A DNA stretch of 64,000 nucleotides from Candidatus Poribacteria bacterium. GTDB taxonomy: Bacteria > Poribacteria > WGA-4E > PCPOR2b. Position 1 is the stretch's first letter, and each line of letters starts with the position of its first letter. Of this stretch, positions 3,495 to 44,376 are shown piece after piece. The DNA lies in the NCBI GenBank assembly GCA_965208325.1, contig OZ242326.1, positions 4,368,153-4,432,152 of the forward strand. The letters are read 5' to 3'. Both the position numbers and the translations under genes were made by a program. The notes beneath the pieces were generated by a model. It had not been told where the DNA came from and searched no databases. It worked only from the letters and a program-made list of their open reading frames with translations.

Positions 3495-4541
3495 TTATCT
3501 TGCCGATGTACTGTCCAACTGCTTGACCCATCCCCAACTCAGCGGCTGCTTGCCCGCGGGAGATACGGCAAATTCGACGACAAAATCGGGATCAAACCAA
3601 GCGGGTCCCCGGTTAATCGATCCAGCTTCTCCAATAACCGGCAGGTTAAACCGATTTTCGTGATTTCCTTTTCCAGCTGCATTCTTCACATCGTAGATGA
3701 CTATCCAAGCGGAACCGCCCGCGAACATAATCGTTGCTACTTGCTTGTCGTTCGGATTCCAGGTTATATCTTGTTTTTCTTCCTGGCTAAAGATTTCAAA
3801 TACGTTTTGGGCTCCATCTTCGCCAACTTCGGCGTCCATTACCCACACGTTTCCGGTTCCGTCTCGCCGCGTAATCCATGCAATCCGGTCTCCTTCAAAC
3901 GAAAATTCCGGCTGAATATCCTCGCCCTTATGATTTGTGTAATTCACCTGGTTTCCGCCATCGGAATTCATCACGTAGATGTCTCCGAGCGTGCGTCCGC
4001 GTTTGGATGAGAACGCAATCCGCCGACCGTCCGGCGACCAAGATGGCATTTTGTCTGGGGCGGGGTCGTTTGTGAGATTGGCAATAATATTGCCACCATC
4101 CGACATTACATAAATTTCGAGGTTCCCGTCCCTATTAGAAGCGATGGCGAGCTTTCTGCCGCCAGGGTGCCAATCGGGCCAGCTATCTACGCCTTCATGA
4201 TCGGTGATTCGCCGCAGATTCTTGCCGTTGGCGTCTACGATATAGATGTCGGTATTTTTCTGTGAAGTCGCATGGAAGGCGAGTTTGCGGCCATCCGGTG
4301 ACCATTCAAGTCCAAGCGGCCGCGGGTCTTCGTTATCTGTTGCAAGGTTGAACAATGCATTCACAGCACCGCCGCCTTTCCCTTCAGGATTAGTCAAAAA
4401 AATTGTCTCCTCGCCGGATACAGCTATTGTCGCTTCGTTGGGTGCGATCGCCTGCCCGCCCATAGGAAAAACGAGGTTGATTAGGATTACTAATTTGGAG
4501 AATGCCAAGATTCTCAAAGTCAATAGCGTTCTGTTTTGCAT
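3495..4541 (-). CDS. TolB-like (PD40 beta-propeller repeat) periplasmic protein
   Basis: PD40-type repeats are present (WSPDGRKLAF...DIYIV, WHPGGRKLAIASNRDG..EIYVM, WSPDGRRIAFSS...DIYVM). Start re-set to the ATG at 4541 (MQNRTLLTLRILAFSKLV...), which is preceded by GAGGAGG. The longer ORF-track start lacks a signal peptide. Confidence 0.8.
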   Translation of the reverse strand: MQNRTLLTLRILAFSKLVILINLVFPMGGQAIAPNEATIAVSGEETIFLTNPEGKGGGAVNALFNLATDNEDPRPLGLEWSPDGRKLAFHATSQKNTDIYIVDANGKNLRRITDHEGVDSWPDWHPGGRKLAIASNRDGNLEIYVMSDGGNIIANLTNDPAPDKMPSWSPDGRRIAFSSKRGRTLGDIYVMNSDGGNQVNYTNHKGEDIQPEFSFEGDRIAWITRRDGTGNVWVMDAEVGEDGAQNVFEIFSQEEKQDITWNPNDKQVATIMFAGGSAWIVIYDVKNAAGKGNHENRFNLPVIGEAGSINRGPAWFDPDFVVEFAVSPAGKQPLSWGWVKQLDSTSAR

Positions 4542-23162: not shown

Positions 23163-23882
23163 CCTAATTGAAAAATAGGTGACAAAGCCATTCTTGGGCG
23201 TTTGAGTTGTTATAACCGGTGGAACTTCTATTGTGCGGGATTTACTATTGCCTTCGCTATTCGCTCAGTTGATTCTATTCGGTAGCTTGATTTCACCTAA
23301 TACCTTACGCCAGCGTTGGGCGGGGCAAGATGCCCCGCCTAGAAGGCGCGGTGGTGGACGCGGGGCAAGATGCCCCGCCTACAAGGCGTGGTGGTGCACG
23401 TGGGGCAAGATGCCCCGCCTACAAGGCGTGGTGGTGCACGTGGGGCAAGATGCCCCGCCTACAAGGCGTGGTAGTGGACGCGGGGCAAGATGCCCCGCCT
23501 ACAAGGCGTGGTAGTGGACGCGGGGCAAGATGCCCGCCTACAAGGCGTGGTAGTGGACGCGGGGCAAGATGCCCCGCCTACAAGGCGTGGTGGTGGACGA
23601 GGGGCAAGGTGCCCCGCCTACAAGGCGCGGTGGTGGACGCGGGGCAAGATGCCCCGCCTACAAGTCGTGGTGGTGGACGCGGGGCAAGATGCCCCGCCTA
23701 GAAGGCGCGGTGGTGGACGCGGGGCAAGATGCCCCGCCTACAGGGCGTGGTGGTGGACGCGGGGCAAGGAAGATCTCTATCGCACTCCTTATTCAGTCGC
23801 TTGATTCCCGGCTACGGAGGGTAGTGGGGTACTTTGCACCTGACGCCCGTTTGGGGCTGTATAAAATGAACTTTCAAACAGG
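23163..23882 (+). mobile_element. MITE-like element, copy 2, carrying an expanded 40-bp tandem repeat
   Basis: Ends are CCTAATTGAA (23163) and TTCAAACAGG (23873). The left arm is homologous to 16718..16860. The right arm (GAAGATCTCTATCGCACTCCTTATTCAGTCGCTTGATT ... CTGTATAAAATGAACTTTCAAACAGG) is homologous to 44103..44376. Confidence 0.5.
23319..23768. repeat. 40-bp tandem repeat, 11 full copies plus one partial, each with a 9-bp-stem GC hairpin
   Basis: GGGGCAAG starts at 23322, 23362, 23402, 23442, 23482, 23522, 23561, 23601, 23641, 23681 and 23721, with a partial copy at 23761. The unit is GGGGCAAGATGCCCCGCCTACAAGGCGTGGTGGTGGACGC, and the hairpin is GGCGGGGCA-AGA-TGCCCCGCC. There are no unique spacers. 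Confidence 0.95.
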
Positions 23883-27110: not shown

Positions 27111-27917
27111 CTACTCCTCTGCGTAGTCCAATCGCTGCGCGTACAGAAGTTGCGACGACCGGCTTGTGCGGTTCGGGAGTTCAATACTAACAGCCAGTGC
27201 CGCTTCGGTTTCCATGTACCTATTGGCGTCTGCGATGCTATCGAACTCAAACTCAACATACCGGTGCGGCGTTGCGCCGTGAATATTGTCGTATGAGGCA
27301 ATCCGCTTGACCTCTTCAGGTTCCTGCAGACTTGGTGCCACAGTCGCAATCCAATCCAGATACGCGTCTTTTCCGCCAAGCGGGTAGTCCACCAAATAAA
27401 CCAGTTTAACCGTCCGCGTGGGGTTTTCGTCCTTAGTATATTCCGATGAGCGTTGCGCGAACACATGCGTACTCACTTGGCTGCTGCGATTTGGGAGATC
27501 CCGAAACACCGCAGCCACATCGGGTCGGCGTAGATATTTTGCCGCATCCGATAAATTATCAAATTCAAACTCAACCAGCCGATGCGGATTTTCCCCGCGA
27601 ACATTGTCGTAAGATGCCACCCGGTTAAGTTCTTCGGGTGCCAGCAATGTCGGAGCGACTTCCGCTATCCAAGCGAGATAGGCGGCTTTTCCGCCGACCG
27701 GATAGTCGACCAACCAGACTACCTTCACCGGTAAAGTTTCCAACTCAACCATGTCGGAGTCCATAGGCGGCATGATGTCAATCGGAGGCGTCGTGTCGGG
27801 CTCGTCATCCTCCGGCGTCATCACATCCATCATCATATCTTGGGACAGATCGCAACCGATTAAAGCTACCGCTGTCAAGATAGCCACAACTAACATGCGC
27901 CTTAGTTGAAATGTCAT
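27111..27917 (-). CDS. Lipoprotein with two tandem ~100-aa repeats (possible ferredoxin-like ABM/Dabb-type fold)
   Basis: Start re-set to the ATG at 27917 (MTFQLRRMLVVAILTAVALIGC, lipobox LIGC), with AAGGAGG 7 nt upstream. There is an internal duplication: VKVVWLVDYPVGGKAAYLAWIAEVAPTLLAPEELNRVASYDNVRGENPHRLVEFEFD versus VKLVYLVDYPLGGKDAYLDWIATVAPSLQEPEEVKRIASYDNIHGATPHRYVEFEFD. The fold assignment is a guess. Confidence 0.6.
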   Translation of the reverse strand: MTFQLRRMLVVAILTAVALIGCDLSQDMMMDVMTPEDDEPDTTPPIDIMPPMDSDMVELETLPVKVVWLVDYPVGGKAAYLAWIAEVAPTLLAPEELNRVASYDNVRGENPHRLVEFEFDNLSDAAKYLRRPDVAAVFRDLPNRSSQVSTHVFAQRSSEYTKDENPTRTVKLVYLVDYPLGGKDAYLDWIATVAPSLQEPEEVKRIASYDNIHGATPHRYVEFEFDSIADANRYMETEAALAVSIELPNRTSRSSQLLYAQRLDYAEE

Positions 27918-28075
27918 CAGTTTGCCTCCTTTGGTGTAATAAATCATGATTAGTTAAGTTTAAACCATCCGCTCACATCAGTTCTGAAAACCGAATTTCC
28001 CGTTGCATCCAGGTTCTGTTTGCTGACTTTGAAAGGCATAATTTCACCTTCCAAAGCACCGTGAAATACTGGCGT

Positions 28076-28474
28076 TTACTCGTCGAAATGGTAGATTATT
28101 TGGTCGAAGCGGTGGCAGGCAAATGAGAACACGAAAATTAACGGCTCGCCGCCGGTGCACCGGACGGCATGTTTCGCGTTCGACGGAATAAAGACCGCCG
28201 AACCCGGTTCTATCTCCGATTCGTGATTCTCAATTGTCATATGGCCCGTGCCGCTGACGACGTAATACGTCTCCTCGGGCTCGTGGTGGTGAAGGGGAAG
28301 CCGCGTACCGGTTGGGAAATCCGCTATGCCTGTAACCAGCCCGCTGCTCGGTCCTTTTTCGCCGGTAACCAGAAGTTTCCAGCGAATCTGGCTTTTGGCG
28401 GCAATGACGGGATCGGCCCAACCCTCCCAAGCGAGTTCTGCTTGATTGATGATTATGGGTTTCTGACCGCTCAT
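28076..28474 (-). CDS. Cupin-domain protein
   Basis: Cupin motifs LPLHHHEPEETYYVVSGTG and GSAVFIPSNAKHAV. Start set to the ATG at 28474 (MSGQKP...). The ORF-track start at 28483 is a GTG. Confidence 0.75.
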   Translation of the reverse strand: MSGQKPIIINQAELAWEGWADPVIAAKSQIRWKLLVTGEKGPSSGLVTGIADFPTGTRLPLHHHEPEETYYVVSGTGHMTIENHESEIEPGSAVFIPSNAKHAVRCTGGEPLIFVFSFACHRFDQIIYHFDE

Positions 28475-28521
28475 AACTTCCACGTTTTTTCGGTATTGAG
28501 AAAGGACACCGCATCAGGAAT

Positions 28522-29388
28522 TTAACCCTCAAGTGCCGCTGCGCCGCTCACAATCTCCGAAATCTCCGTCGTAATCTGCGTCTGGCGTGCCCGGTTCCGC
28601 TGTAAGACCAAATCGTCAATGAGTTCCTTGGCGTTTCGTGTGGCATTCTCCATCGCCGTCATCCGCGCCGCTTGCTCGGCAGCGTTGGAGTCCAAAAGCA
28701 CCTTCCACATCTGCATATTAAGATGTTTCGCCAATACCGACTGAAATATCGCATCTTGTTCGGGCTCATAGAGATAATCTAGGAACAGGTCGTCGCCGGT
28801 CGGCACTTCCGGGGTAAGCGGCAGCAACTGCTCGACCAAGACCGTCTGCAGAATGGCAGATTTGAAATCGTTGTAGATGACCTCCACTTTATCGACCGCT
28901 TTGTCTCTGTAAAGAGGCTCAAACTCTGCCACTATGGCGACTGCTGACTCGAATGCAAGTTGCCGAAAAATGTTCACATATTCGGCGATGATATTATAAT
29001 TGCGCCGTGCGAAATGGTCGCGTGTGCGCCTGCCGACGCAGATGACCGAGACCTCCGAGCCCTGCGCTTCATAGTAAGCCCTCCGCTGCGTTGTTGTTCG
29101 AATGACATTGCTGTTAAAGCTGCCGCACAACCCGCGGTCCGCGGACACGGAGATGAGGCAAACCCGCTTCAGTTTGCGTGACTCGAGCAGGGGATGGGTA
29201 GGATTCTCAATCTGCGAAATAAGATGTCCCAAAATGGTGTTGAATTTTTCCGCGAACGGGCGCGTCGCGAGGATGTTTTCTTGTGCGCGCCGCAGCCTCG
29301 CCGCGGCGACCACTCGCATCGCATCCGTCACCTGCGCAATATTTTCGATACTTGCGATTCGGCGCCTAATTTCACGTAGTGTTGACAT
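28522..29388 (-). CDS. atpG: F1 ATP synthase subunit gamma
   Basis: 288 aa: MSTLREIRRRIASIENIAQVTDAMRVVAAARLRRAQ ... ITTEISEIVSGAAAL, with the typical gamma N- and C-terminal helices. Confidence 0.95.
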   Translation of the reverse strand: MSTLREIRRRIASIENIAQVTDAMRVVAAARLRRAQENILATRPFAEKFNTILGHLISQIENPTHPLLESRKLKRVCLISVSADRGLCGSFNSNVIRTTTQRRAYYEAQGSEVSVICVGRRTRDHFARRNYNIIAEYVNIFRQLAFESAVAIVAEFEPLYRDKAVDKVEVIYNDFKSAILQTVLVEQLLPLTPEVPTGDDLFLDYLYEPEQDAIFQSVLAKHLNMQMWKVLLDSNAAEQAARMTAMENATRNAKELIDDLVLQRNRARQTQITTEISEIVSGAAALEG

Positions 29389-29406
29389 GGGGGAAAGTTA
29401 GAAGAA

Positions 29407-29504
29407 TAATGAGTAAAGCGTAATGCGTAATGCGTAATGCGTAATGAGTAATGAGTAATGAGTAATGCGTAATGAGTAATACGTAATGCGTAATGCGTAA
29501 TGCG
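29407..29504. repeat. Heptanucleotide microsatellite (TAATGCG/TAATGAG/TAATACG), 14 units
   Basis: Read directly: TAATGAG TAAAGCG (TAATGCG)x3 (TAATGAG)x3 TAATGCG TAATGAG TAATACG (TAATGCG)x3. It lies between the atpG start and the 4HB gene stop. Confidence 0.95.
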
Positions 29505-29517
29505 TGATTAAGAAGGA

Positions 29518-29976
29518 TTAGTCGTTTAGGGGTGTTTCGGTGTCGTCGATATTGTAGGGTTCAGATTCTTCTTTTAAATTAGATTTTCTCTGATTTGAAA
29601 GCATCACGAGCAATAATCGGATAATTTCGGTCATCAATTCTAAGCGGTGATCGATAATAGATTCATTCAGAATGAAGCGGGCTTTGAAATACCAATCTCG
29701 GCACTCTCGAGCCGATCCGAGCGCATATTCGTAAAACCGGGCGCGGTCTCTATCGCTGCTTCGGCTGAATCCTTCGGCGATATTTGCGCTGATTGAACCG
29801 AGTGATCTGCAAAGCTGATCGGATAAAGAAACAGCGCGTCTGTCTTTAGCCAGCGCTGTGATGTCGGCCCAGCCGATATTCGCGGCGTACAGCGCCAACC
29901 GGTAGACCTTTACCCTCCATAGTGCATCGCCGGTAATGCTTTCAGGTACCGTCCGCTGCCACTCCTCGAACTTCAT
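29518..29976 (-). CDS. Four-helix-bundle protein of the 23S rRNA intervening-sequence / S23-like family (Avd-related)
   Basis: 152 aa. The region LSDQLCRSLGSISANIAEGFSRSSDRDRARFYEYALGSARECRDWY matches the family hallmark (..S...NIAEG..R.....F...A.GS..E). It is inserted between atpA and atpG on the same strand. Confidence 0.8.
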   Translation of the reverse strand: MKFEEWQRTVPESITGDALWRVKVYRLALYAANIGWADITALAKDRRAVSLSDQLCRSLGSISANIAEGFSRSSDRDRARFYEYALGSARECRDWYFKARFILNESIIDHRLELMTEIIRLLLVMLSNQRKSNLKEESEPYNIDDTETPLND

Positions 29977-30002
29977 GGCTTTCGCCCTTTGCGCCTTAAT
30001 GT

Positions 30003-30044
30003 ATATGAGTAATGCGTAATACGTAATGCGTAACTAGTAATTCA
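30003..30044. repeat. Short heptanucleotide microsatellite (same family)
   Basis: ATATGAG TAATGCG TAATACG TAATGCG TAACTAG TAATTCA, lying between the intact 4HB gene and the remnant copy. Confidence 0.8.
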
Positions 30045-30120
30045 ACGCTCATTTCCAAAGCCTTACTAATAGCCTTTAATCGCCTCATGCAACTACCAGA
30101 ATGCAACGCCCTTTTATATG

Positions 30121-30224
30121 CCAATCTCGGCACTCTCGAGCCAATCCTAGCGCATATTCGAATTCCAAAGCGCATCGCCGGTAATACGCTCGGGCACAGT
30201 ATTCTGCCACTCCCCGAACTTCAT
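30121..30224 (-). pseudogene. Decayed second copy of the four-helix-bundle gene
   Basis: 30121..30160 matches 29692..29731, and 30171..30237 matches 29927..29993 (this segment includes the start codon and upstream sequence) of the intact gene. About 185 nt are missing between the two segments and the 3' part is absent. There is no intact ORF on the minus strand. Confidence 0.55.
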
Positions 30225-30242
30225 GGCTTTCGCCCTTGCTTC

Positions 30243-30326
30243 TTACGCATTACGTATTACGTATTACGTATTTTTCCTAACGAGTAACGAGTAATACGTA
30301 ATACGTAATACGTAATACGTAATACG
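30243..30326. repeat. Heptanucleotide microsatellite with an inverted segment (long hairpin potential)
   Basis: TTACGCA (TTACGTA)x3 at 30243..30270 is the inverse of (TAACGAG)x2 (TAATACG)x5 at 30278..30326. It starts 4 nt after the atpA stop codon. Confidence 0.9.
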
Positions 30327-30330
30327 CAAC

Positions 30331-31857
30331 TCATAGCTCATTACTAAATTCACCTTTAAAACTCTTTACAGCCTCATGCAGTTTGTCAATCAATTCATCA
30401 CTGAGTTGTCCCGACTCTGCAATCTCCTTGAGGATGTCCGCGTGATTTCTCTCCATATATGCCAAGAATTCGGATTCAAACCGCGCCACCAAATTTGTTT
30501 CAATGTCGTCCAGATACCCGTTCGATCCGCAGAAAATAGAGGCAATCTGTTTCTCGACAGGCATTGGCTCATATTGAGGTTGTTTCAGCAATTCAACCAA
30601 CCGCTCACCACGCCGAAGCTGGCTTTGCGTTGAAGCGTCGAGGTCGGAACCGAACTGCGCGAAGGCGGCAACTTCGCGGAAACTCGCCAGATCAAGTTTC
30701 AGCGTCCCCGCAACTTCGTCCGATTTCATGGCTTTGGTCTGCGCATCGCCGCCGACGCGAGACACCGAGGTGCCTACATCTATTGCCGGACGGACGCCTT
30801 GATTGAAGAGTTCGGAAGTCAGGTAAATCTGTCCGTCGGTAATCGAAATCACATTGGTCGGGATGTAGGTTGTGAGATCGCCTTCGAAAATTTCAATAAT
30901 TGGCAATGAGGTCAACGAACCCCCGCCCAAGTCGTCGCTGAGTTTTGCGGCGCGTTCCAACAGCCGTGAGTGGAGATAGAATACGTCGCCCGGATATGCT
31001 TCGCGCCCCGGCGGGCGGCGTGAGAGCAGCGACATCTGGCGGTATGCCCACGCATGTTTGGTCAAGTCGTCGTAAATTACCAGTGCGTGCTGCCCCTTGT
31101 CGCGGAAATATTCACCCATCGAGGTGCCCGTGTAGGGCGCAAGATATTGGAGCGGGGACGGTTCGCTCGCCGGCGCGGAAACGACAATGGTGTAATCCAT
31201 CGCGCCGTGTTCTTCTAGGGTATTCACGACCTGCGCGACGGTCGAACCCTTCTGTCCGACGGCCACATAGATGCAAAACACGCCGGTATTTTTTTGATTG
31301 ATGATAGTATCAATCGGGATAGCCGTCTTGCCCGTTTGACGGTCGCCGATAATTAGCTCGCGCTGCCCTCGTCCGATGGGCGTCATGCTGTCAATCGCCT
31401 TTAAACCTGTATAAAGCGGTTCGTTCACGGGCTGGCGTTGGACGATTCCCAGCCCCTTCCGCTCAACGGGGAGGGTCTGCTCGGTCTTAATTTCTCCTTT
31501 TCCGTCAATCGGTTGTCCGAGCGCGTTCACGGCGCGCCCAAGCAGCGCCTCGCCGACGGGCACTTCAAGCAGCCTGTTCGTGCGCTTGGCGATATCGCCC
31601 TCGTGGATTAGCTTATCCTCGCCGAAGAGAACGCAGCCGACGTTGTCCTCTTCGAGGTTGAACGCCATCCCGAACACCTCGTTCGGGAATTCAACCATCT
31701 CGCTCGCCATAACGTTGGCAAGCCCGTGCACGCGGGCAATACCGTCGCCGACATCCAACACCGTTCCGGAGTCGTAAACGTCGACCTGCTGGCTGTATTG
31801 CAGCAGTTGTTGCTTTAATATGTTTGAAACCTCATCGGGTCTAACTTCTCTTGCCAT
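30331..31857 (-). CDS. atpA: F1 ATP synthase subunit alpha
   Basis: 508 aa with Walker [11 protein letters not shown], plus [12 protein letters not shown] and YDDLTKHA motifs. Confidence 0.97.
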
Positions 31858-43834: not shown

Positions 43835-44376
43835 GCGGGGCAAGATGCCCCGCCTACAAGGCGTGGTGGGGTACGGGGTGGCAAGATGCCCGCCTACAGG
43901 GCGTGGTGGTACACGCGGGGCAAGATGCCCCGCCTACAAGGCGTGGTGGGGTACGGGGTGGCAAGATGCCCCGCCTACGGAGGGTGGGGTGATGATTTAC
44001 GCGGGGCAAGATGCCCCGCCTACAAGGCATGGTGGCACGCTAGGGTTGGGGGAGGCAAGATGCCCGCCTAGGGAGGGTGGGGTGATAGTTTACACGGGGC
44101 AATGAAGATCTCTAGCGCACTCGTTATTCAGTCGCTTGATTTCAGCCTACTGAGGGTAGTGGGATACTTAATGCCTGCCGCCCCTCTGGGGCTATTGATG
44201 TAGGGTGAATTGATGTTGCTATATACCTATCGCCCCTCTGGGGCTTTCGATTTAGGTGAAATAATGATTTTATAATCCTGAGAATCTCAATTGTACTCGC
44301 AATTCACCCGCTCGATCCCGCGCTGGCGCTTTGGCTTATGACAACTGGTGCTGTAAAATATGAACTTTCAAACAGG
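43835..44376 (+). mobile_element. MITE-like element, copy 3 (left arm missing, about 6 degenerate hairpin repeats, extra hairpin modules)
   Basis: GGGGCAAGATGCCCCGCC hairpins run from 43837 to about 44097 with about 40/80-bp periodicity. The right arm (GAAGATCTCTAGCGCACTCGTTATTCAGTCGCTTGATT ... AAATATGAACTTTCAAACAGG, ending at 44376) is homologous to copy 2. Confidence 0.5.

What the first reader, a model, noticed from the sequence alone, without database searches (positions are those of the whole stretch)
29405..30330. Four-helix-bundle (23S-IVS / Avd-like) gene cassette bracketed by heptanucleotide microsatellites, inserted between atpA and atpG, with a decayed second copy
atpA (stop at 30331) and atpG (start at 29388) are normally adjacent. 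Here they are separated by about 940 bp containing, in operon orientation:
1. A heptamer array with an inverted segment that can form a hairpin with a stem of at least 20 bp (30243..30326).
2. A remnant of a 4HB gene that keeps its start codon region and one internal block but has lost about 185 nt and its 3' part (30121..30224).
3. A short heptamer array (30003..30044).
4. An intact 152-aa 4HB gene (29518..29976).
5. A heptamer array of 14 units, (TAATGCG/TAATGAG/TAATACG)n, at 29407..29504.

The 4HB family is known from intervening sequences of 23S rRNA genes and as the Avd accessory protein of diversity-generating retroelements. No reverse transcriptase or rRNA gene is in this window.

A tandem pair (one copy dead), each copy bounded by the same 7-nt microsatellite, looks like a self-propagating cassette that has landed inside an essential operon. 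The repeats may be its recombination or processing sites. In the mRNA they would read (CGCAUUA)n. I do not know of a described link between heptamer arrays and this gene family.
Basis: partly seen in the sequence, partly recalled or inferred. Interest (0 to 1): 0.7.

Follow-up and report, generated by a model that had tools for sequence, protein, structure and literature searches.

The report
Old heptamer-flanked four-helix-bundle cassette in atp operon
A small, conserved gene of unknown function, bracketed by runs of a 7-base repeat, has sat between two ATP-synthase genes of sponge-symbiont Poribacteria for a very long time; it is inherited vertically and repeatedly decays, so it is not a recent jumping element, and it looks like a messenger-RNA counterpart of the intervening sequences known from 23S rRNA.

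Summary
A 942-nt insert lies between atpA and atpG. It holds an intact 152-aa PF05635/TIGR02436 four-helix-bundle (4HB) gene, a decayed second copy, a 30-bp hairpin and three arrays of TAATRCG-type heptamers.

The "freshly landed, self-propagating cassette" reading is not supported.
- In 80 related atpA-atpG loci the cassette occurs only in Poribacteria.
- The 4HB tree mirrors the host tree, and 4HB synonymous divergence matches that of atpG.
- dN/dS is 0.05-0.2.
- Relatives show a full decay series: intact gene, internal deletion, arms only, one arm, nothing.
- The window's second copy is a local tandem duplication that then decayed.

All seven operon contexts found for this 4HB subfamily, in several phyla, carry flanking arrays with the same RCGT(A/G) core. 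The reverse does not hold. Of 128 TAATRCG arrays sampled from metagenomes, only one adjoins a 4HB remnant. Such arrays are 40-50 times over-represented in sponge metagenomes, often as gene-less hairpins.

Best reading: an old, dispensable, IVS-like cassette whose arms can form an RNase III-type stem in the atp transcript. The protein probably recognises the repeat; that step is inferred.

The parts
30331..31857 (-). atpA (F1 alpha subunit, 508 aa); its TGA stop lies 4 nt before the first heptamer
   Evidence: ORF list; Pfam ATP-synt_ab families.
30278..30326 (-). Array A1, 'forward' type: (CGTATTA)5(CTCGTTA)2. It forms the 5' arm of the hairpin.
   Evidence: TRF rows 30278-30294 and 30291-30326. 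A shorter version is shared with relative L002.
30243..30270 (-). Array A1', 'reverse' type with TAA in every unit: (TACGTAA)3TGCGTAA. It is the 3' arm of the 30-bp hairpin with A1 (7-nt loop at 30271-30277). It is also the original upstream arm of the cassette.
   Evidence: -48.5 kcal/mol, z = -8.8. I1, and I2/I10 for complementarity to A3; duplex with A2 -35.4 kcal/mol and with A3 -39.4 kcal/mol.
30097..30237 (-). Decayed 4HB copy. It keeps the leader, the ATG at 30224 and 20 codons (30164-30237), plus a block of codons ~80-101 (30097-30160). About 181-184 nt were deleted between the blocks, with a frameshift and a stop. The 55 nt that follow (30042-30096) have no recognisable homology.
   Evidence: searches (tblastn; 84% and 86% identity; nearest relative is the adjacent intact copy), D2 and D3.
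30005..30041 (-). Array A2, forward type: TTACGCA TTACGTA TTACGCA TTACTCA. It is inverted relative to A1' and direct relative to A3.
   Evidence: I3/I7.
29977..30004 (-). Duplicated leader (…AAGGGCGAAAGCC) immediately before the intact gene's ATG
   Evidence: the leader is identical to the one in front of the remnant.
29518..29976 (-). Intact four-helix-bundle gene, 152 aa
   Evidence: PF05635 E = 5.9e-17 and TIGR02436 E = 4.5e-19. PDB 2GSC (XCC0516) E = 1.5e-4. dN/dS 0.05-0.22 against orthologues.
29407..29505 (-). Array A3, forward type, 14 units of CGCATTA/CTCATTA/CGTATTA. It ends 18 nt before the atpG start. The 12 nt between the 4HB stop codon and A3 (29506-29517, CCTTCTTAATCA) extend the complementarity to the flank of A1'.
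   Evidence: 14.1 copies, 90% matches; D1 and I2. Read depth over it is 40-50 times that of the flanks in four runs.
28522..29388 (-). atpG (F1 gamma subunit, 288 aa)
   Evidence: Pfam PF00231 E = 2.3e-94.

Best explanation
This is an old, vertically inherited, dispensable cassette of the kind otherwise known as the S23p-bearing intervening sequence of 23S rRNA. Here it sits in an operon spacer.

Origin and history:
- One unit consisted of an upstream array of T-R-C-G-T-A-A heptamers, a 4HB gene, and a downstream array of the complementary TTACGYA heptamers. It entered the atpA-atpG spacer before the sampled Poribacteria lineages split, and has been passed down with the operon since.
- The protein is kept by purifying selection where it survives. 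The unit is nevertheless lost often, by internal deletion of the gene and then of the arms.
- In the window's lineage the unit acquired an extra forward array upstream. The leader-gene-array part was then duplicated in tandem. The first copy decayed, and the last array expanded by slippage to 14 units.

How it most likely works (inferred):
- The operon, including the cassette, is transcribed as one RNA.
- The complementary arrays pair into a 17-30-bp (up to 59-bp) double-stranded stem. As in rRNA intervening sequences, such a stem is a substrate for RNase III, or acts as a stabilising 3' hairpin. The cassette is thereby insulated or cut out, and the upstream and downstream cistrons are uncoupled.
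- The TAA in each upstream unit gives stop codons in all three frames. The downstream array carries none and runs into the next gene's ribosome-binding site.
- The 4HB protein, a homologue of a pentameric toroid, probably binds the repeat. The repeat core stays the same within this protein subfamily across phyla and across saturated synonymous divergence.
For: Shown:

1. Distribution. Of the 80 related atpA-atpG loci fetched, six hold an intact cassette and ten hold remnants or arms. With the window itself and metagenome contigs L001 and L094-L099, the intact cassettes form three host lineages. Only Poribacteria are affected.

2. Vertical descent.
- All atp-locus 4HBs form one clade (SH-aLRT 94), with L049 basal and subclades matching the AtpA+AtpG tree.
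- 4HB dS tracks atpG dS: 0.68 vs 0.66, 1.40 vs 1.35, 0.74 vs 0.89. Both are saturated for deeper pairs.

3. Selection on the protein: dN/dS 0.05-0.22.

4. Decay series in the window's 16-species clade:
- L014: arms plus start plus C-terminal remnant
- L075 and L005: remnants
- L011 and L015: arms only
- L004 and L010: downstream arm only
- L006-L009 and L013: 8-17 nt left

5. Local duplication. The dead copy is closest to its neighbour (84-86% identity). The inverted repeat A1'/A3 extends beyond the heptamers (I2).

6. Arms.
- Upstream units are T[AG]CGTAA and downstream units TTACG[CT]A in every Poribacteria cassette, despite dS > 1.4.
- Relatives at 60-65% identity carry arrays with the same RCGT(A/G) core. 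They lie in coxS-coxL, PAS kinase-response regulator, ABC-3 permease pair, MoxR-DUF58, ACAD-ETF and RNase H-like contexts.
- Arm duplexes are 17-59 bp, with z = -4 to -9 in most.
- Copy number differs between strains that encode the identical protein.

7. Co-transcription. Metatranscriptome contigs of 1.5 kb span atpA-4HB-atpG of an L012-like relative without a gap.

8. No terminator-like site in the insert beyond the chance expectation.

From the literature: the Coxiella IVS has a 28-bp terminal stem, 2-3 variable tandem heptamers before the S23p ORF, RNase III excision and a decaying ORF (PMC4990558).
Against: - No direct evidence for RNase III cleavage or for protein-repeat binding. Contigs cannot show RNA ends, and DNA carry-over in those libraries is possible.
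- In the window the intact gene is not enclosed by a stem. Its cognate upstream arm is predicted to be captured by A1, and A3 stays unpaired.
- The protein is not basic overall (by my count about +3 over residues 1-128, with an acidic tail), unlike Avd.
- Several orthologues (L003, L012, L019) lack a visible Shine-Dalgarno sequence.
- Arrays of the same unit are abundant without any 4HB gene nearby. They clearly can exist, and probably spread, on their own.
- One ancient gain requires at least 14 losses.
- The WIN/L001/L002 branch of the 4HB tree is unusually long.
Confidence: 0.6

Rival explanations
1. Active mobile cassette. The gene plus heptamer arms is a self-propagating element that recently inserted into the atp operon, and the arms are its recombination sites.
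For: - The same subfamily with the same architecture sits in seven unrelated operon junctions in several phyla. At deep time scales it must therefore have moved.
- Filled and empty sites exist among relatives.
- A tandem copy is present.
- The same spacer holds a hicBA pair in a sister clade, so it is a landing spot for small selfish genes.
Against: - Gene tree and host tree are congruent, and dS equals that of atpG.
- The empty sites in the window's clade carry footprints of deletion.
- Depth over the gene equals the flank depth in the source metagenome: 21.5 vs 19-21.
- No transposase, integrase or target-site duplication.
- No hits in plasmid or phage collections, PADLOC or PHROGs.
Confidence: 0.12
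2. Independent parts. TAATRCG arrays are ordinary slippage-prone intergenic microsatellites or REP-like hairpins of these genomes, and the 4HB gene is an unrelated passenger that happens to sit beside them.
For: - 127 of 128 arrays sampled from metagenomes have no subfamily 4HB next to them. 27 are gene-less hairpins, and many precede ordinary genes.
- Array depth is 40-50 times the flank depth in four sponge runs.
- Heptanucleotide repeats are a known abundant class (PMC4692102, PMC4679880, PMC2700814).
Against: - 7 of 7 operon contexts and all atp-locus orthologues of this subfamily carry arrays with the same core.
- At this locus arrays and gene have the same phylogenetic distribution. No TAATRCG footprint is seen in the 42-species clade without the gene.
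- In 99 loci, about 0.8 Mb of mostly Poribacteria DNA, strict three-unit arrays occur only at the cassettes.
- Unit and arm complementarity are kept despite saturated dS.
Confidence: 0.18
3. Domesticated accessory gene of the Poribacteria ATP synthase operon, for example an assembly or regulatory factor.
For: Vertical inheritance inside the operon, purifying selection and co-transcription.
Against: - Lost or decayed at least ten times within one 16-species clade.
- Replaced by hicBA in another clade.
- Absent from most Poribacteria.
- Close homologues sit in unrelated operons.
Confidence: 0.05
4. Avd-type accessory protein of a diversity-generating retroelement.
For: Same Pfam family as Avd-like proteins (PMC10053308 is listed as mentioning PF05635).
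Against: - All neighbours within about 5 kb are atp genes, a cupin and a lipoprotein, both here and in relatives. None is a reverse transcriptase.
- No PADLOC hit.
- Only PDB 2GSC matches by sequence.
Confidence: 0.02

Closest known systems
ORF-bearing intervening sequences (IVS) of 23S rRNA (Coxiella burnetii, Leptospira, Xanthomonas, Brucella; PMC4990558)
   Same: - Same protein family (S23p / PF05635).
- The gene lies inside terminal inverted repeats that form a 17-30-bp stem.
- Tandem heptamers next to the ORF vary in number between strains.
- The ORF is prone to deletion.
- The element is embedded in a highly transcribed unit.
   Different: - The host site is an mRNA operon spacer (atpA-atpG), not helix 25/45 of 23S rRNA.
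- The heptamer unit is different (TRCGTAA vs GACAGAT), and the arms are themselves built of heptamers.
- The protein is under clear purifying selection here, whereas the Coxiella ORF is thought not to be expressed.
- RNase III processing is untested here.
Intergenic heptanucleotide repeats of bacteria (TAACTGA in Beggiatoaceae, PMC4679880; GGGNATC in Xanthomonas/Nostoc, PMC4692102; Geobacter heptanucleotide elements, PMC2700814)
   Same: - Period-7 arrays of 2-26 units lie between co-directional genes, close to stop or start codons.
- They are transcribed and variable in number.
- One orientation gives stop codons in all three frames.
   Different: - None of those reports links the repeats to a 4HB gene.
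- The unit sequence differs.
- Here the arrays occur as inverted pairs that enclose a gene or a short loop.
REP/BIME elements with RAYT transposases (REPINs)
   Same: Many gene-less palindromic copies in intergenic, transcribed positions, and a few copies associated with one conserved protein-coding gene flanked by the repeats.
   Different: - The associated protein is a small helical bundle with no nuclease or transposase motif.
- The arms are microsatellite arrays rather than a fixed palindrome.
- No evidence that the protein mobilises the repeats.
XCC0516 (PDB 2GSC), the S23p homopentamer, and DGR Avd
   Same: Sequence homology to 2GSC (E = 1.5e-4, residues 39-128); four-helix-bundle family.
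   Different: - The protein has an N-terminal ~36-residue extension and an acidic C-terminal tail.
- No reverse-transcriptase partner.
- Oligomeric state was not examined here.

Membership tests
PF05635 / TIGR02436 four-helix-bundle (23S rRNA IVS protein) family | Profile match above the curated cut-off | tested here: met
   PF05635 62.3 bits (cut-off 33.8). TIGR02436 68.7 bits (cut-off 24). PDB 2GSC E = 1.5e-4.
23S rRNA intervening sequence (IVS) | Inserted in a 23S rRNA helix | tested here: not met
   Flanked by atpA and atpG. No rRNA or other Rfam family in the window.
23S rRNA intervening sequence (IVS) | Terminal inverted repeats that form a long stem around the ORF | tested here: met
   - Relatives have 17-59-bp arm duplexes.
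- In the window A1'/A3 (-39 kcal/mol) and A1'/A2 (-35 kcal/mol) can pair.
- However, the predicted fold pairs A1' with A1 and leaves the intact gene unenclosed.
23S rRNA intervening sequence (IVS) | Excision from the transcript by RNase III | not testable with these tools
   Only assembled RNA contigs were available. They span the cassette but cannot show processing.
Diversity-generating retroelement (Avd accessory) | Adjacent reverse transcriptase | tested here: not met
   Neighbouring genes, here and in five relatives, are atp subunits, a cupin, a lipoprotein and DJC28_CD. The whole 64-kb window was not scanned for reverse transcriptase.
Diversity-generating retroelement (Avd accessory) | Template repeat / variable repeat pair linked to the gene | not tested
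   No search for a template/variable repeat pair was run outside the insert. Inside the insert the only long direct repeats are the two blocks of the dead gene copy (D2, D3).
Prokaryotic long simple-sequence (heptanucleotide) repeats | Tandem period-7 arrays, intergenic, with copy number variable between strains | tested here: met
   - TRF arrays of 4-14 units.
- Differences of one unit more or less in run X5.
- Upstream spacers of 45, 59 and 66 nt with an identical protein in L085-L090.
Transposon / MITE | Transposase, or target-site duplication, or multiple near-identical copies | tested here: not met
   - No enzyme gene in the unit.
- No direct repeat at the filled/empty boundaries.
- Gene depth equals flank depth.
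REP/RAYT (REPIN) system | Repeat-flanked gene encodes a Y1 (HUH) transposase | tested here: not met
   The only Pfam hit is PF05635.

The most novel reading that the evidence does not exclude
This 4HB subfamily and the RCGT(A/G) period-7 arrays form one two-part system.
- The protein is the sequence-specific reader of the repeat, as RNA stem or as DNA.
- Most repeats in a genome are gene-less satellites, either relics or non-autonomous copies.
- The gene-carrying copy is maintained because the protein acts on all of them, for instance by controlling processing or stability of operon mRNAs at cistron junctions.
- 23S rRNA intervening sequences would be the special case that landed in rRNA.
Probability: 0.2. 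Interest if true: 0.8.

Novelty: new variant of a known kind. Interest (0 to 1): 0.55.

Why it matters
PF05635 proteins are among the most widespread small proteins with no known function. The origin and purpose of rRNA intervening sequences have been open since 1990.

The Poribacteria atp locus offers a dated natural series of one such cassette:
- one origin,
- co-divergence with the host,
- purifying selection on the protein,
- conservation of the repeat unit through saturated divergence,
- every stage of decay down to gene-less heptamer hairpins.

This shows that at least some of the abundant intergenic heptamer hairpins of bacteria are relics of gene-carrying cassettes. These cassettes can be stable operon residents rather than fast-moving elements. 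The series also gives concrete substrates (arms, protein, empty and filled alleles) for testing RNase III processing and protein-repeat recognition.

Tried and rejected
- **Gut-1 or any other Rfam motif for the arms.** Only sub-threshold miRNA-precursor hits that merely reflect the hairpin. Nothing at gathering score in the window.
- **Phage or plasmid carriage.** No tblastn match. No PHROGs or PADLOC family.
- **Intrinsic terminator at the hairpin.** No T-run, and the scan is at chance level.
- **Footprint hidden in the longer AtpA of the 42-species clade.** The extension is an acidic low-complexity tail, not translated heptamers.
- **Independent insertion of the dead copy.** Rejected because it is closest to the adjacent copy.
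- **4HB genes beside the metagenome arrays.** The subfamily HMM found 0 of 180 adjacent ORFs even at E <= 10. Only the truncated L140 gene was found. Very distant PF05635 members cannot be fully excluded.
- **Literature.** Searches for the gene-repeat link outside rRNA found nothing.
Full report
**Observation**

The atp operon lies on the minus strand: atpB, E, F, H, A, then G, then a cupin and a lipoprotein gene, then atpD. Between the atpA stop (30331) and the atpG start (29388) lie 942 nt. Read in operon sense they contain:
- A1: (CGTATTA)5(CTCGTTA)2
- a 7-nt loop
- A1': the inverted array (TACGTAA)3TGCGTAA
- a leader and a dead 4HB copy
- A2: four forward units
- the same leader again and an intact 152-aa gene
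- A3: 14 forward units

A1 and A1' fold into a 30-bp stem (-48.5 kcal/mol, z = -8.8). The intact ORF is a clear PF05635/TIGR02436 member. Its only solved relative by sequence is XCC0516, PDB 2GSC.

The dead copy keeps two blocks, 74 nt at 84% and 64 nt at 86% identity to the intact copy. About 181-184 nt are missing between them.

Contigs of an independent run (X5) confirm the tandem structure and differ by one heptamer more or less in two arrays. Another strain (X6) lacks the dead copy. The observation therefore stands.

One correction is needed. Only the dead copy is bracketed by inverted arrays, whereas the intact gene sits between direct arrays.

**Relatives of the locus**

The genome is a sponge-associated Poribacteria genome (record titles; earlier notes).

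Searching species-representative genomes with AtpG returned 80 loci: about 65 Poribacteria plus outgroups. I measured every atpA-atpG spacer.
- Intact 4HB cassettes occur in L002, L003, L012, L017, L019 and L049. They also occur in metagenome contigs L001 and L094-L099.
- Every one uses the same repeat family: T[AG]CGTAA upstream and TTACG[CT]A downstream.

Within the window's own 16-species clade all stages of decay are present:

| Locus | State of the spacer |
|---|---|
| L014 | both arms, the start and a C-terminal remnant |
| L075, L005 | remnants |
| L011, L015 | arms with a ~60-nt loop |
| L004 (closest relative, AtpG 95%), L010 | downstream arm only |
| L006-L009, L013 | 8-17 nt left |

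Elsewhere:
- A sister clade has L017 and L019 with the cassette. Five other species carry a hicB/hicA pair in the same spacer.
- A 42-species clade has 0-2-nt spacers or unrelated inserts, and no TAATRCG footprint.

**Recent arrival or old resident**

Four lines of evidence point to an old resident.
- **Trees.** The AtpA+AtpG tree and the 4HB tree agree. All atp-locus 4HBs form one clade (SH-aLRT 94), L049 is basal in both, and the L017/L019 and L003/L012/window groups correspond.
- **Synonymous divergence.** 4HB dS matches that of the neighbouring atpG. WIN-L002 is 0.68 vs 0.66, L002-L003 is 1.40 vs 1.35, and L017-L019 is 0.74 vs 0.89. Both are saturated for deeper pairs.
- **Selection.** dN/dS is 0.05-0.22 throughout.
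- **Copy number.** Read depth over the gene equals the flank depth, and there is no plasmid or phage homologue.

The cassette has therefore co-diverged with the operon from a single origin. It encodes a protein under selection, and it has been lost many times.

The window's second copy is closest to its neighbour. The inverted repeat between A1' and A3 extends past the heptamers (I2). The simplest history is an internal tandem duplication of leader-gene-array, followed by decay of the first copy and slippage expansion of A3.

**Gene and repeat**

I looked at homologues at 60-65% identity from other phyla. They lie in six further operon junctions:
- coxS-coxL, in two related lineages
- a PAS kinase and its response regulator
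- two ABC-3 permease genes
- MoxR and DUF58
- acyl-CoA dehydrogenase and ETF
- behind an RNase H-like gene

All are co-directional with their neighbours. All are flanked by period-7 arrays with the core RCGT(A/G).
- The usual layout is reverse array, gene, forward array.
- Sometimes extra gene-less hairpins sit on one or both sides.
- The upstream gene's stop codon commonly lies in the first unit.

Reverse units contain TAA, so three units give stops in all three frames. Forward units contain no stop. The same property was noted for TAACTGA repeats (PMC4679880).

Arms pair into 17-59-bp duplexes. Array length varies between samples that encode the identical protein.

**The reciprocal test**

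Scanning metagenome contigs for (TAATRCG)3 gave 128 arrays in 120 contigs from many environments:
- 27 are gene-less hairpins with loops of at most 150 nt.
- 10 have longer loops.
- Only one is of the opposite (forward-then-reverse) type.
- Only one (L140) adjoins a 4HB gene, and that gene is truncated.

Many arrays sit just upstream of ordinary genes.

In four sponge runs the depth over A3 is 40-50 times the flank depth. Joints reveal gene-less hairpins with loops of 11-33 nt.

The association is therefore one-sided. This 4HB subfamily always comes with the repeat, but the repeat mostly occurs without the gene.

At the atp locus, however, gene and arrays share the same phylogenetic distribution. 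Strict arrays occur nowhere else in about 0.8 Mb of fetched loci. The decay series shows directly that gene-less hairpins can arise from cassettes.

**Mechanism**

Shown:
- Metatranscriptome contigs of 1.5 kb cover atpA-4HB-atpG of an L012-like relative in one piece.
- No terminator-like site beyond chance lies in the insert.

Inferred from the rRNA precedent (PMC4990558) and from the stems:
- The paired arms make a double-stranded RNA that RNase III could cut, or that could act as a protective 3' hairpin.
- This would uncouple the upstream and downstream cistrons and release the 4HB message.

Also inferred: the protein recognises the repeat. The grounds are that the repeat core is conserved within the protein subfamily, across phyla and across saturated divergence.

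Points against:
- There are no data on RNA ends.
- The protein is not basic.
- In the window the intact gene is not enclosed, because A1 is predicted to capture A1'.

**Comparison with what is known**

The closest described system is the S23p-bearing 23S rRNA intervening sequence. The defining location in rRNA is not met, so this is not a member of that class. It is an operon-borne variant of it.

It shares the period, position and variability of published intergenic heptanucleotide repeats, none of which has been tied to a gene. I found no paper describing 4HB genes between heptamer arrays in operons.

Earlier notes of this scan describe the same layout in other genomes. I treated them as leads. 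My results agree on the architecture. They add a large filled/empty series with evidence for vertical descent. They do not reproduce the Gut-1 resemblance at this locus.

**Verdict**

The feature is real and the anatomy is correctly described. The "landed mobile cassette" reading is replaced by an old, selected but dispensable, IVS-like operon resident with a local duplication.

The open and interesting question is what the protein does with the repeat.

Noticed in passing
L016, L018, L020, L022, L023 (atpA-atpG spacers, about 436-446 nt, locus positions ~3555-4000): A hicB-like/hicA toxin-antitoxin pair occupies exactly the same atpA-atpG spacer in a sister clade whose other members (L017, L019) hold the 4HB cassette. 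HicA_toxin E = 6e-18 and HicB_lk_antitox E = 2e-6. hicA looks frameshifted in L022.
   Followed up: partly
L042 and L024 atpA-atpG spacers: Other Poribacteria carry different short repeats at this site. L042 has (CTGAYAA)4, the TAACTGA-type heptamer described in Beggiatoaceae. L024 has a 9-mer, (GTTATCTGC)4. Several others have REP-like palindromes (…GTAGGTTGGGTTGAA…CCCAAC…).
   Followed up: no
L031-L065 group (42-species clade), end of atpA: AtpA carries a ~25-aa acidic, proline-rich C-terminal extension, and atpG starts 0-2 nt after its stop. This is a quite different, tightly coupled junction.
   Followed up: partly
window 29407-29505 in runs X1 and X4 (table 5c): One gene-less heptamer hairpin elsewhere in the metagenome has a 33-nt loop containing GGGGCATCTTGCCCC. 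This is the core of the 40-bp hairpin repeat seen at window 23320-23768 and 43835-44035. The two repeat families are therefore found nested.
   Followed up: no
L194 (metagenome contig), about 46 nt upstream of an ORF whose N-terminus reads like AtpA: A seven-unit TAATRCG array with its inverted partner 6 nt away sits directly in front of an atpA-like gene in an unrelated organism. This suggests such hairpins recur at atp cistron junctions.
   Followed up: no
window 27111-28483; L002, L003, L094: The cupin and lipoprotein genes between atpG and atpD are conserved in relatives. L003 and L094 have an additional DJC28_CD-domain gene there. In these relatives a TPP-enzyme gene follows instead of atpD within the fetched range.
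   Followed up: no
4HB genes of L003, L012, L017 and L019 versus their atpG: GC3 of the 4HB gene is 0.35-0.46 against 0.49-0.61 for atpG, despite co-divergence over saturated dS. The low-GC composition has not ameliorated.
   Followed up: no
L002 3980-4010: In the closest 4HB-bearing relative the ATG-AAG start of the gene is replaced (…GTAGTTTGAGGAG…). The gene was called from an internal GTG (147 aa), which may be an early step of decay.
   Followed up: no
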